From the NCBI GenBank assembly GCA_964016885.1, contig OZ024740.1, positions 345,278,001 to 345,342,000 on the forward strand: a DNA stretch of 64,000 nucleotides. Reading direction: 5' to 3'. Below the pieces are notes generated by a model, which ran no database searches, was not told the origin of the DNA, and saw nothing but the letters and a program-made list of their open reading frames with translations. This stretch comes from Eledone cirrhosa (Eukaryota). The number at the start of each line of letters is the position of its first letter. Position 1 is the stretch's first letter. Shown here one piece after another: positions 242-35,039 of the stretch. The translations under genes and the position numbers were made by a program.

Positions 242-444
242 CTGAGAATTTACTGTGTAAGTAGTCATCTTTACAAATGAACTTGTTCTCATCCAGTACA
301 TATAGTTCTTCTCCCGTTGATAGTTGCTTTCGACAAACCATACATGTGAAACACTTGAGATGGAAGACTTTGCTACGTGCTCTCCGAACCAAATCATTGG
401 GTGAAATACCCTGTGAACACCCTGCGCATTTTGTGCCGAATCTC
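242..444 (-). CDS. Lhx1/5: Internal coding exon of a LIM-homeobox transcription factor (Lhx1/Lhx5, Lim1), second LIM domain
   Basis: Translates [67 protein letters not shown], near-identical to LIM2 of Lhx1/Lhx5. Minus-strand acceptor TTTATGTTTACAG|G (AG at 446-445) and donor CTCAG|GTGAGC (GT at 241-240). Length 203 nt = 1 + 67 codons + 1. Confidence 0.96.
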
Positions 445-487
445 CTGTAAACATAAATAAAAATACATAAATAAAAAGGTCTATAAG

Positions 488-8982: not shown

Positions 8983-9822
8983 TAGAGTGTTTTTGAGTGG
9001 GGCGAGCAGGGGGACATCGAAAAGTGGAGAGAATAAGAAAAAAATGAACTGGAGAATGTTGAGATGTTGAGATTAAAACCTGGAAATAGAAAGAAAACTT
9101 TAGGGCCCAAAATATTTTATAAAGTTTGGTGTGTGAGAATGTCATTCAGATTAATCTATCTCTACTCTATCTCGAGTACTTTTTTCATTTTTGTGTACTG
9201 AATGGAGAACAAAACTTGAAATAGCTGATATTCTGTATGCAGAATGTAAAGGAATGTAACATTAAATAGAGTAAGTCATCTAAACCTAGAACTTGTCATA
9301 TCTGTTGATTATCTATTCGAACAGATGTGATTTAAATTCAAAGGCATTCCAGTCATGGCCATTCCGTCATTTTAAAGAGTATGTAGATCTACTTTACATA
9401 ATGTACTATTGATTTATTTTATGCAGTTGTGTGATTTGGATTTTATTTGTAGCAGACTGAACGACAACGTAGAAACTTCTGTCGGCTGGTATGAAATGAT
9501 AGATGACGAAAACGTCAATGAGAAATAGAAGAGATTGGAATTGGATTGAAGAGAATACAAAGGGCAACGAGAGAAAAATGTGCAGAAATAGAAGAGATTG
9601 GACGTAAAAGGCAAGGAACGAAAAAAATTGAAAGACGCAGACGACAGTTAAAATGAAAAAGATAAGAAACTACTGGTAAATAGATGAGAAGTCGGAAGAT
9701 CAAAGCAAAAACAAAAAAATAAGGTGGAGTCTGGGAATTATATACAGCAAATAATAGACAGAATCCCGATACAGAATAACTTTATAAGCGATGGAGTATT
9801 TAGAATGAAATGTGTAGTAGTG

Positions 9823-11926: not shown

Positions 11927-11990
<64 letters not shown>

Positions 11991-11996
<6 letters not shown>

Positions 11997-12316
11997 ATAT
12001 TAACAAATGGAAACTATATTTATAAAACCATATTTATTTCATTATACATATTTCAAGGGCCACCAAGGTAAACTATGGTGCGCTTTCATCAGATAAAATA
12101 TAATATAGGTTAGTTTTATAAATAAATATTGACATACCCTTAAAAATGCAACCATTCTGGTTGGAATCTCCTGTATAATGAAATAAATATGGTTTTATAA
12201 ATATAGTTTCCATTTGTTAATATATTGTATTTACTCCAATAATTTGTTGAGTGCTTTATATCAGTTATAAAAATATTTTACTTGTTGTATCCCAACAAAT
12301 TAAATATAACCTCTAC
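11991..12316. mobile_element. PLE-like stub with 58-bp perfect inverted arms and a long-stem-II HHR core
   Basis: Arms at 11991-12048 and 12172-12229. Minus strand reads CTGATGA-AAG-CG-CACCA-loop-TGGTG-GCC-CTT-GAAA (12051-12092), with a degenerate cleavage site. TA tracts on both sides. Confidence 0.7.
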
Positions 12317-17944: not shown

Positions 17945-18629
17945 CACTGATGAAGGACACACTTTTTTCATATGTAACCCCTTTGCAACTCCGCAGCGCC
18001 CTTATTATCATATTTACACATATTTTTTCCTCTGCTGCTACACCGTCTTTTTCGTTCTATGTATCTTTACCCTTTCTAGCAGTCTCTCTCTCTGTTAGCC
18101 TCTTCCTCACCCTTCACTCACTCATTCTCTGTCACTACCTCTCCTCCTCCTCTTTCTTCCCGTTTGACCTGTGCGTAATTCTTTTCTCTCGCACGCTCGG
18201 CCAAGCTGGTCGGAATTGTTTCTCACTCTCGTCTACGATTTCACAGAACTTATGTTTACCGAATTCGCAGACCAGACCCCTTCTTCCTCCCGTTAGACCT
18301 GTGCGAAATTCCTTCCTTGCTCCCATTTCAACCAGGTTTGATGGTCTTTATTCTCTCGTTCACAATTTCACCGAATTTAAATTCATAGAAATTTGGGACT
18401 TGTCTCCTTCTTCCTCACTTTCTGTTGCTTCACCATTTTGTTTGTTTACACTCGCGTCCCCTTTATTTACGTATCCCAACGACTTTTATAAGCCGTTGCT
18501 CGCGCCAACCGGACGTATATGGTCTTTAAAGCGATGAAATGCCTATGATGGTTGGAAGATCACTGATGAAGGACAAACTTTTTTCATATGTAACCCATTT
18601 GCAACTCCACAGCGCCCTTATTATCATAT
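17943..18629 (+). mobile_element. Element bounded by 71-bp direct repeats (pLTR-like) that begin with a truncated HHR core
   Basis: Repeats at 17943-18013 and 18559-18629 (3 mismatches) start ATCACTGATGAAGGAC. The interior has a degenerate ~127-bp duplication. TA-flanked. Confidence 0.6.
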
Positions 18630-18697
18630 ATATCGAGAATGACACAGCTAGAGACTAAGTCTCTAGCTGTGTCATTCTCGATAAAAGCACTGGATAT

Positions 18698-18740
18698 GTA
18701 ATCCTGAAGATTTCTAATAAGAATGAAACGCGTAGATTAC
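18698..18740 (+). ncRNA. Type I hammerhead ribozyme (minimal, palindromic stem III), copy 1
   Basis: GTAATC-CTGAAGA-T-TTCT-AATA-AGAA-T-GAAAC-GC-GTA^GATTAC. Stem I is extended by the 16-bp pairing ATTCTCGATAAAAGCA/TGCTTTTATCGAGAAT. Predicted cleavage after 18734. Confidence 0.9.
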
Positions 18741-19007
18741 TTCCCTTGCTTTTATCGAGAATCTAATTGTAATACGTGACGTATTCTATTCTATAGCGAT
18801 TAGGTCTTCAAAATGTTTATTATAAACATACAGAATATTTTCGAATATTCTATGTCTATATTCACATATATATCGCTATTTCAGAGCATTTATTCCAATT
18901 TCTAATTTCTGCCGGACCGGCAACCGCTCTTTCAAACCAGTTCCTGTACACAGCTAAGTATTCTATAAGTCTCTAGCTGTGTCATTCTCGATAAAAGCAC
19001 TGGATAT

Positions 19008-19050
19008 GTAATCCTGAAGATTTCTAATAAGAATGAAACGCGTAGATTAC
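19008..19050 (+). ncRNA. Type I hammerhead ribozyme, copy 2
   Basis: Identical to 18698-18740 at an offset of 310 nt. Predicted cleavage after 19044. Confidence 0.9.
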
Positions 19051-19203
19051 TTCCCTTGCTTTTATCGAGAATCTAATTGTAATACGTGACGTATTCTATT
19101 CTATAGCGATTAGGTCTTCAAAATGTTTATTATAAACATACAGAATATTTTCGAATATTCTATGTCTATATTCACATATATATCGCTATTTCAGAGCATT
19201 TAT

Positions 19204-19363
<160 letters not shown>

Positions 19364-30476: not shown

Positions 30477-30533
<57 letters not shown>

Positions 30534-30580
30534 AAGTAAAAGCGAAGTAGTTTCAGATGTTCAAGTCCTTTAATAATAAT

Positions 30581-30654
30581 GCTGTGATATATATTTCAAT
30601 GACGACACTGGCCACACTGTTCTGTGTGCGAGTGTCGTGACATCATCAGACAGC
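30581..30654 (-). ncRNA. Type I hammerhead ribozyme with extended stem II (minus-strand mirror copy)
   Basis: Exact reverse complement of 30751-30824. Confidence 0.78.
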
Positions 30655-30750
30655 TTGTTACATAATAAGGTTGTTTCCGAGGCAATCCAAATTGAATTGA
30701 CATGTCGATTCAATTTGGATTGCCTCGGAAACAACCTTATTATGTAACAA

Positions 30751-30824
30751 GCTGTCTGATGATGTCACGACACTCGCACACAGAACAGTGTGGCCAGTGT
30801 CGTCATTGAAATATATATCACAGC
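30751..30824 (+). ncRNA. Type I hammerhead ribozyme with extended (45-nt) stem II
   Basis: GCTGT-CTGATGA-[TGTC-ACGACACT-CG-CACAC-AGAACA-GTGTG-GCC-AGTGTCGT-CATT]-GAAAT-ATAT-ATC^ACAGC. Confidence 0.78.
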
Positions 30825-30827
30825 ATT

Positions 30828-31010
30828 TGGATTGGCAGTATCGGTAGAGGCTCAGACACCATGCTTTCCAGCATAGTTACGTCCCTTTACGATCTGAGTT
30901 CAAATCCCGCCGAGGTTGACTTTGCCTTTCATCCTTACGAGGTCGATAAAATAAAGTACCAGTAATGCACTGGGATAATTGATGGCCTTGTGCCAAAAGT
31001 AGAAACAATT
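30828..31010 (+). mobile_element. Full-length tRNA-derived SINE nested in the palindrome
   Basis: TGGCAGTATCGG A-box and GAGTTCAAATCC B-box; inserted at ATT|ATT, splitting the right arm. Confidence 0.92.
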
Positions 31011-31130
31011 ATTATTAAAGGACTTGAACATCTGAAACTACTTCGCTTTTACTTATTCGATATTTACTCCGTCACTCCTATGTGGAAAAAGTACATTGAG
31101 TGCTTGAATTGAATTGCATCAATATTTACC

Positions 31131-31206
<76 letters not shown>

Positions 31207-34495: not shown

Positions 34496-34754
34496 ATTAT
34501 ATATATCATATATGCAACAACACAGCTCGCCATTTTTCATTCATATATATATATATGTATATATATGTATATATATGTGTGTATATGTATATATAAAATA
34601 AGATGGGACTAGCATGGGTTTCACTACGAGTAATAGAGAGAGACAGAGAGAGAGAGAGAGAAATATGTATACGTGTGTTTGTGTGTTCATGTATATATAT
34701 ATATGTATCTATGTATGTGTGTGTAGGTGTGTGTGTGTGTGTATGTGTGTGTAT

Positions 34755-34955
34755 GTGTGAGTAAAAGGTAAACAGAAATGACAACACAAACAGTACAGTA
34801 TATGGAAGGAATAGATTAGTTTCACGCTTGAAATAGCAGGAAGGGGGTCTCAACGTTTCGGACCCCCTTCCTGCTATTTCAAGCGTTAAACTAATCTATT
34901 CCTTCCATATACTGTACTGTTTGTGTTGTCATTTCTGTTTACCTTTTACTCACAC
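34755..34955. mobile_element. ~95-bp-arm inverted repeat, family C, with an HHR 3' half in the loop
   Basis: Arms at 34755-34849 and 34861-34955 (one mismatch). The loop reads GTCCGAAACGTT on the minus strand. Homologous to 60024-60150. Confidence 0.85.
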
Positions 34956-34965
34956 ACACACACAC

Positions 34966-35039
<74 letters not shown>

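What the first reader, a model, noticed from the sequence alone, without database searches (positions are those of the whole stretch)
30530..31134. Giant palindrome encoding an intact long-stem-II hammerhead on both strands
Seen: ~173-bp arms with one mismatch and no spacer. Each arm contains GCTGT-CUGAUGA-[45-nt hairpin]-GAAAU-AUAU-AUC^ACAGC. Typical PLE and retrozyme HHRs have a very short stem II, so a 45-nt stem II with internal loops combined with a minimal palindromic stem III is an unusual architecture. Transcription in either direction gives one ribozyme and its exact antisense.
Basis: partly seen in the sequence, partly recalled or inferred. Interest (0 to 1): 0.75.

Follow-up and report, generated by a model that had tools for sequence, protein, structure and literature searches.

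The report
Head-to-head stub of ribozyme-carrying retrotransposon
This palindrome is the cut-short end of a repeat with over a thousand copies in the genome, present twice head-to-head, likely pasted in by a Penelope-type jumping gene's enzyme copying from two start points; the layout is a known one, and the predicted self-cutting RNA in each half would be blocked by the other half.

Summary
The palindrome and both hammerhead motifs are real, but the arms are 125 bp contiguous; they reach 173 bp only after skipping a 180-bp SINE-like insert in the right arm. The locus is one 5'-truncated, inverted insertion of a young non-coding repeat (unit 1.24-1.32 kb, one type I hammerhead per unit, 1,173 exact motif hits) in a (TA)n site, apparently inside intron 1 of a LIM-domain gene. 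Inverted copies with a one-sided tail are the known Penelope-like element (PLE) layout; this scan noted it before on other DNA. The long stem II is not special here: 29,781 such motifs occur genome-wide, including in ORF-bearing PLEs; U·U stem-II bases and palindromic stem III have published precedents. Possibly new: 24 of 24 resolved inverted pairs have one short and one long 3' end, and each end lies 6-9 nt upstream of a conserved RCUC...GAGY-RCU hairpin shared with two autonomous PLE families. This points to two-site, two-strand priming. Stem II carries a conserved C·C mismatch. Cleavage, expression and the partner enzyme are untested. Verdict: new member of a known kind; interest 0.32.

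The parts
30479..30529 (.). (TA)n target microsatellite, left
   Evidence: sequence; nearly all short and long ends of family copies abut (TA)n or (TC)n(TA)n
30530..30704 (-). Left arm: 5'-truncated family copy ending at the 'short' 3' end (56 nt past the cut site)
30581..30654 (-). Type I hammerhead motif, left arm; predicted cut between 30586 and 30585; sense to the host gene's strand
30701..30704 (.). 4-nt self-complementary CATG shared by both arms (microhomology junction, centre of the palindrome)
30701..30827 (+). Right arm, first part: 5'-truncated family copy
   Evidence: 100% identical to 41 of 44 listed genome matches, itself included
30751..30824 (+). Type I hammerhead motif, right arm; predicted cut between 30819 and 30820; stem II of 45 nt = 3 pairs (U·U, G·U, U-A), C·C, then a distal hairpin
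30828..31007 (+). SINE-like repeat (about 186 nt, here lacking ~7 nt at its 5' end), likely inserted later at an ATTAT site; ATT duplicated
   Evidence: 7 further matches in the window; the same site is hit in 6 other family copies with different duplications; 'SINE' is a recalled label, ARAGORN found no tRNA
31008..31058 (+). Right arm, second part, up to the position of the short end
31059..31135 (+). One-sided 'tail' to the long 3' end; holds hairpin A (RCUC 31066-31069 ... GAGY-RCU 31098-31104)
31134..31203 (.). (TA)n target microsatellite, right
   Evidence: sequence
246..446 (-). Context: LIM-domain exon of the putative host gene; an upstream LIM exon lies about 173 kb away on the same strand, so the finding likely sits in that intron

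Best explanation
The locus is a single 5'-truncated, head-to-head insertion of a young, non-coding, hammerhead-bearing repeat, likely mobilised in trans by an endonuclease-positive Penelope-like element (PLE). Shown: family of >1,100 arms; 1.24-1.32 kb tandem unit without ORF; (TA)n targets; two fixed 3' ends ~75 nt apart; inverted pairs always short+long; 0-6 nt overlaps at most inversion junctions; a conserved hairpin 6-9 nt 3' of each end, in the same order as in two ORF-bearing PLE families (hammerhead - short end - hairpin A - long end - hairpin B - ATG). Inferred: a PLE protein, probably a dimer, binds the two hairpins, cuts both strands of a (TA)n target and primes reverse transcription on each strand, one at the short and one at the long start site, on uncleaved (or circular) RNA from one source locus. 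Both cDNAs stop early and anneal at a short microhomology; here both stopped at the same CATG, which gives a perfect palindrome. A SINE later entered the right arm. The hammerhead's family role is likely dimer-dependent cutting of tandem transcripts into unit-length RNA. This copy is predicted to be dead: it lacks hairpin B and a second unit, and in either direction the antisense arm is transcribed first and sequesters the ribozyme.
For: Copy number: 1,173 exact hits, control 0. Unit 1,270 nt, longest stop-free frame 88 aa; 0 of 30 loci at the unit's 5' part hit either PLE protein and 28 of 30 reach the next hammerhead 0.7-1.1 kb on. Ends: 132 distinct arms = 53 short, 50 long, 25 continuing, 4 other; of 35 divergent pairs, 24 have both outer ends resolved and all 24 are short+long. 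Junctions: 14 of 23 distinct have 0-6 nt overlap, 7 have 1-20 extra nt, 2 are complex. The short arm reaches further 5' in 5 of 19 pairs, the long arm in 10, equal in 3, complex 1, which a pure fold-back copy cannot give. Paired arms differ 1.4% (18 pairs) against 5.5% for 6,056 unrelated pairs and share rare alleles 9x more often. Hairpins. Prediction test in another family: 42 of 50 hits have RCTC 8-9 nt past the long end; the GAGYRCT partner, not in the pattern, is present in 20 of 20 loci (19 places); a PLE ORF starts ~50 nt later in 20 of 20. Read-through folding: probability of stems I and II is 0.000, against 0.43-1.0 for the motif alone. Literature: PMC8557442 and PMC3846280 passages (inverted 5'-truncated copy, tail at one end, (TA)n targets); PMC11167929 main text (both strands cut and extended, two internal start sites bounding the tail, predicted dimer).
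Against: No cleavage, RNA or protein-binding data. The partner enzyme is not identified: best local alignment of the unit to autonomous family 1 was not significant (5 of 200 shuffles as high) and tblastn finds no ORF remnant. In autonomous family 1, only 3 of 5 loci with arms on both strands look short+long; L092 and L095 do not. 13 polymorphic differences between paired arms remain after removing 9 artefact columns, so one RNA molecule for both arms is not shown. PMC11167929 saw no difference in start site between top and bottom strand in vitro. Stem II has U·U (or G·U in the bulged register) where G10.1-C11.1 is usual, so activity may be low; in the 2026 preprint only 1 of 9 tested retrozyme dimers cleaved. 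End positions are uncertain by a few nt because of TA/AAT homology with the target. Loci came from top-ranked or first-listed hits, not a random sample.
Confidence: 0.85

Rival explanations
1. Fold-back/self-priming: one cDNA or an antisense RNA folds back at a short palindrome (here CATG) and copies itself, giving the second arm (model proposed in PMC3846280).
For: At this locus both arms stop at the same self-complementary 4-mer and differ at 1 of 173 sites; 3 of 19 pairs are near-symmetric; paired arms are far more alike than random.
Against: In 5 of 19 pairs the arm reaching further 5' is the short one, so the other arm holds tail sequence absent from its supposed template; in the other direction a copy would have to stop exactly at the short end. 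Priming on an antisense RNA template is not excluded by these counts.
Confidence: 0.1
2. The palindrome is a selected regulatory device: a sense/antisense ribozyme switch or dsRNA/small-RNA source in the host gene's intron.
For: It likely lies in intron 1 of a LIM-domain gene and would form a 125-bp RNA duplex.
Against: The arm is 100% identical to dozens of dispersed copies, so it is young; palindromes are the routine product of this family; a SINE interrupts one arm; the Rfam miRNA hits are below gathering score.
Confidence: 0.04
3. It is a MITE or foldback DNA transposon with terminal inverted repeats, or an assembly artefact.
For: Long inverted arms, no ORF.
Against: Copies have variable 5' truncation, fixed 3' ends, tandem units and unpaired arms; the arms here differ by a SINE, a tail and one mismatch, which an assembly mirror would not give.
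Confidence: 0.01

Closest known systems
Inverted, 5'-truncated insertions of EN+ Penelope-like elements with one-sided tail (PMC8557442, PMC3846280; passages seen)
   Same: Head-to-head truncated copy, tail on one arm, partial tandems, (TA)n targets, hammerhead near the 3' end
   Different: No ORF in the unit; tail ~75 nt rather than 30-40 bp; here both arms are truncated at one point, so no spacer
Animal non-LTR retrozymes (PMC7229834, passages; bioRxiv 10.64898/2026.07.22.740005, parts 1-3 of 5)
   Same: Non-coding tandem units with one type I hammerhead each; proposed PLE-dependent; axolotl motifs have 1-bp palindromic helix III or U·U at the base of helix II
   Different: Unit 1.24-1.32 kb against ~220-350 nt (PMC7229834) or 51-972 bp (preprint, whose tandem search stopped at period 1,000); mostly dispersed truncated or inverted copies; circular RNA not shown
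Metazoan PLE minimal hammerheads (PMC4209133, Results and Discussion read)
   Same: Long helix II, short helix I, palindromic minimal helix III, predicted dimer activity, opposite-strand pairs
   Different: Stem II 45 nt with a conserved C·C at the fourth position and no G10.1-C11.1 pair; its supplementary alignments were not seen and may hold similar forms
Anole Poseidon element PAc in vitro (PMC11167929, main text read)
   Same: Two internal reverse-transcription start sites bounding the tail; needed RNA lies 3' of the start; both strands extended; hammerhead cleavage not needed for insertion
   Different: PAc start sites lie inside the ORF in an AC-rich stem-loop; no paired-hairpin rule or one-site-per-strand rule in its main text

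Membership tests
EN+ PLE-type insertion | Inverted 5'-truncated copy adjacent at the 5' end | tested here: met
   window and 35 divergent pairs
EN+ PLE-type insertion | Tail at one end only | tested here: met
   24 of 24 resolved pairs short+long
EN+ PLE-type insertion | AT-rich/(TA)n target | tested here: met
EN+ PLE-type insertion | Target-site duplication | tested here: inconclusive
   both flanks are (TA)n, so a duplication cannot be read
Autonomous PLE | RT + GIY-YIG ORF | tested here: not met
   longest frame 88 aa; 0 of 30 loci hit PLE proteins
Non-autonomous PLE derivative | cis elements shared with autonomous PLEs of the same genome | tested here: met
   same hammerhead class and end/hairpin layout; of 30 of the 229 hits of a shared 20-mer, 21 run into autonomous family 1, 6 into this unit, 3 unassigned
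Non-autonomous PLE derivative | Specific partner enzyme | tested here: inconclusive
   two candidate families; alignment test not significant; clade (Neptune-like, from a four-Cys motif before GIY-YIG) not tested by tree
Non-LTR retrozyme | Non-coding tandem units each with a type I hammerhead | tested here: met
   13 full units of 1,235-1,322 nt, incl. a 4+6 hammerhead array; the window copy itself has no full unit
Non-LTR retrozyme | Linear and circular unit-length RNA | not testable with these tools
   no RNA run was available to lay
Type I hammerhead ribozyme | Core CUGANGA / GAAA / UH | tested here: met
   C17 kept in 1,115 of 1,128 copies
Type I hammerhead ribozyme | Stems I and II supported by compensatory change | tested here: met
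   19 hand-picked sequences: 92.7% paired, 14 of 16 pairs with two-sided change, covariation 0.576 vs 0.280 shuffled, 0/500; slid controls at most 47.8%; structure was written from the window sequence and relatedness is not controlled
Type I hammerhead ribozyme | G10.1-C11.1 (R-Y) pair closing stem II | tested here: not met
   U·U without bulge (35 of 67 sequences, mostly this family) or G·U with a 1-nt bulge; U·U precedent cleaves weakly (PMC7229834)
Type I hammerhead ribozyme | Self-complementary minimal stem III allowing dimer fold | tested here: met
   8-nt AUAUAUAU is self-complementary, duplex only -3.2 kcal/mol
Type I hammerhead ribozyme | Self-cleavage | not testable with these tools
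   needs an assay
MITE / foldback DNA transposon | Fixed terminal inverted repeats on all copies | tested here: not met
   variable 5' truncation and unpaired arms

The most novel reading that the evidence does not exclude
PLEs carry a compact two-hairpin cis cassette (RCUC...GAGY-RCU, twice, 75-95 nt apart) that docks the two protomers of the RT-endonuclease dimer. Each hairpin sets one reverse-transcription start 6-9 nt upstream and serves one target strand. This would explain at once the tail, the inverted copy and the strict short+long pairing, show how animal retrozymes hijack PLEs, and define a ~100-nt signal sufficient for trans-mobilisation. The C·C mismatch in stem II would be an undescribed tertiary or protein contact of this hammerhead class.
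Probability: 0.45. Interest if true: 0.6.

Novelty: new member of a known kind. Interest (0 to 1): 0.32.

Why it matters
The locus itself is ordinary transposon debris. The family is useful because the PLE insertion mechanism is still open (PMC8557442, PMC11167929), and that animal retrozymes are PLE-dependent rests on co-occurrence and pLTR similarity (2026 preprint). A young family with two sharp ends, a strict short+long rule and hairpins shared with intact 713-715 aa PLE ORFs in the same genome gives exact RNA substrates and mutations to test both ideas. Searches that found no paper on paired start-site hairpins, twin priming in PLEs or a C·C stem-II mismatch: (open-access library only; Repbase and the papers' supplements were not seen, and they may already describe the family or the stem-loops).

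Tried and rejected
Rfam: no hammerhead model matched; miRNA hits are generic hairpin scores. Expression: no RNA holder listed; laying contigs of 3 of the 4 listed runs (kind not recorded) showed only high repeat depth and one contig joint lacking the SINE. Rolling-circle evidence from the 4+6 array: rejected, since units group as minus-arm triplet and ABAB dimers (0.2-1.9% within, 5.4-7.3% between), i.e. later tandem amplification. Genomic fossil of cleavage: 2 of 13 copies lacking C17 start exactly at the cut site among 1,128; a control 3 nt downstream gave 2 junctions in 7 hits, so no excess; cleaved linear RNA is not a favoured template. Pfam and PDB sequence scans of the autonomous ORF gave nothing significant; the Atlas placed it with HTH_animal / GIY-YIG / RVT_1 clusters. 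Local alignment of the unit with autonomous family 1: not significant. The tblastn lines were blank through a wrong option and were repeated. The 1-nt-bulge register of stem II pairs only the first position well (65 of 67) and fails beyond; the two registers at the stem base cannot be fully told apart. Look-up of earlier findings by sequence: nothing.

Full report
Observation. The window holds a 125-bp inverted repeat without spacer and with one mismatch at 30578-30827. The left arm extends to 30530 (173 bp) and its remaining part matches 31011-31058, beyond a 180-bp insert at 30828-31007. The right arm then has about 75 further nt with no counterpart on the left. Both sides end in (TA)n. Rfam has no hammerhead match.

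The family. The arm has 1,061 first-look candidates in the genome; 41 of 44 listed matches are 100% identical. An exact 31-mer gives 1,173 hits, control 0. Tandem copies define a unit of 1,270 nt from cut site to cut site with no frame over 88 aa; 13 full units measure 1,235-1,322 nt. Of 30 loci (of 229 hits) at the unit's 5' part, none hit a PLE protein and 28 reach the next hammerhead. The family is therefore non-coding, with variable 5' truncation and fixed 3' ends.

Two ends, one per arm. Of 132 distinct arms held, 53 end 56 nt after the cut site (short), 50 end about 75 nt further (long), 25 continue into another unit and 4 are unclear. Of 35 divergent pairs, 24 have both outer ends resolved, and all 24 are short+long; the window is one of them. 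In related families, 5 of 5 inverted pairs read also fit. In autonomous family 1, 3 of 5 loci fit and L092 and L095 do not. At 23 distinct inversion junctions, 14 show 0-6 nt overlap, 7 show 1-20 extra nt and 2 are complex; the window has a 4-nt CATG overlap with both arms truncated at the same base, which is why it is a perfect palindrome. The arm reaching further 5' is the short one in 5 of 19 pairs, the long one in 10, equal in 3, complex in 1; a simple fold-back copy cannot give the first group. Paired arms differ by 1.4% (18 pairs; 9 of the 65 differences are an artefact column) against 5.5% for unrelated arms, and share rare alleles nine times more often, so both come from one source locus; 13 polymorphic differences leave open whether from one RNA molecule.

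Link to autonomous PLEs. An endonuclease-like frame near one copy has 58,526 first-look candidates. Seven fetched loci have intact 713-715 aa ORFs that the Atlas groups with HTH_animal, GIY-YIG and RVT_1 clusters (Pfam and PDB scans blank). This family 1 has a hammerhead with a 26-nt stem II and two 3' ends about 70 nt apart. In it and in our family each end lies 6-7 nt 5' of an RCUC...GAGY-RCU hairpin, with an A-U/G-C swap at the first pair between copies of the hairpin. A 20-mer at the second hairpin has 229 hits, control 0; of 30 examined, 21 run into family 1, 6 into our unit, 3 unassigned. I then predicted a second hairpin past the long end of a third family: 42 of 50 hits have RCTC 8-9 nt past that end, the 3' partner, which was not in the pattern, is present in 20 of 20 loci, and a PLE ORF begins about 50 nt later in 20 of 20, with a hammerhead of our class upstream in 18. 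Continuing copies without RCTC were not counted. Overall similarity of our unit to family 1 is not significant, so the actual partner is not identified.

The hammerhead. The pattern CTGATGA-N20-50-GAAATATATA has 29,781 hits against 64 in the control, in many families. In 67 distinct sequences held, about half from our family, stem II begins with three pairs, then C·C in 62 of 67, then a distal helix; lengths run 20-45 nt, and one 46-nt form is listed. On 19 hand-picked representatives, 14 of 16 pairs show two-sided change and no shuffle of 500 reaches the covariation score (structure written by me, relatedness not controlled); 17 of 19 have C·C. Our family has U·U at the base of stem II. PMC7229834 (12 of 26 passages) reports an axolotl hammerhead with that mismatch that cleaves weakly alone and better as a dimer, and another with a 1-bp palindromic helix III. 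PMC4209133 (parts 1-2 of 4) reports long helix II, palindromic helix III, opposite-strand pairs and low in vitro activity for metazoan PLE motifs. Only 2 of 1,128 copies start at the cut site, no more than at a control position, so templates are uncleaved or circular, in line with PMC11167929 (main text).

This copy. The insert in the right arm is a very abundant ~186-nt SINE-like repeat that enters ATTAT sites; six other family copies carry it at this same site with different duplications, so it is a later event. LIM exons at window 246-446 and about 173 kb upstream lie on the minus strand, which places the locus likely in intron 1 of a LIM-homeobox-type gene (gene name recalled, splicing not shown). 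In read-through RNA of either strand the antisense arm comes first and the computed probability of hammerhead stems is 0.000, against 0.43-1.0 for the motif alone. The copy lacks the second hairpin and a second unit, so it is predicted unable to move or cut.

Mechanism. Shown: family structure, ends, pairing rule, junctions, hairpin conservation, stem covariation. Inferred: PLE dimer binding two hairpins, double-strand cut in (TA)n, two primed cDNAs from two internal starts, microhomology joining. The layout is described in PMC8557442 (12 of 20 passages) and PMC3846280 (11 passages; proposes self-priming). PLE dependence of animal retrozymes is argued in bioRxiv 10.64898/2026.07.22.740005 (parts 1-3 of 5). 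PMC13282606 (7 passages) gave only repeat class counts. Supplements of these papers were not seen and may show the same stem-loops or hammerhead forms. Searches found no paper on the hairpin pair, on twin priming in PLEs or on the C·C mismatch. Three earlier notes of this scan on other genomes reached the same general reading; they are leads, not support.

Verdict. A real but ordinary inverted stub of a non-autonomous PLE derivative: new member of a known kind, confidence 0.85, interest 0.32. The family-level paired-hairpin rule is the part worth testing (probability 0.45, interest 0.6 if true).

Noticed in passing
window 18565-19250: Tandem dimer (310-nt period) with a short-stem-II type I hammerhead on the + strand at 18704 and 19014, ending in (TA)n; looks like a classical non-LTR retrozyme dimer.
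   Followed up: no
window ~11990-12300: Inverted short+long insertion of another long-stem-II hammerhead family (hammerhead at 12092, - strand); the + arm starts about 6 nt before the cut site.
   Followed up: partly
window 246-446 (-) and L242:~9000-9120 (-): Two LIM-domain exons about 173 kb apart, i.e. a very long first intron of a LIM-homeobox-type gene; the upstream exon's frame seems to shift near its 3' end in the assembly.
   Followed up: partly
G000:C1:130,881,870-130,893,900 (L128, L129): Divergent array of 4+6 hammerhead units of this family with later tandem amplification and an ABAB higher-order pattern.
   Followed up: yes
window 30828-31007; L028, L102, L114, L121, L122, L127: The SINE-like repeat repeatedly inserts a few nt after the hammerhead cut site of this family at ATTAT, an insertion hot spot.
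   Followed up: partly
G000:C2:169,702,638-169,703,572: Six hits of the hairpin-B motif of autonomous family 1 at 183-nt spacing: a possible short tandem derivative of its pLTR.
   Followed up: no
L091-L097: Autonomous PLE family 1 has a ~2-kb microsatellite-rich 3' region with a second, diverged hammerhead-like copy about 0.5 kb after the ORF.
   Followed up: no
window 34689-35021: Another long inverted repeat (161-nt arms, 88%), partly simple repeats.
   Followed up: no
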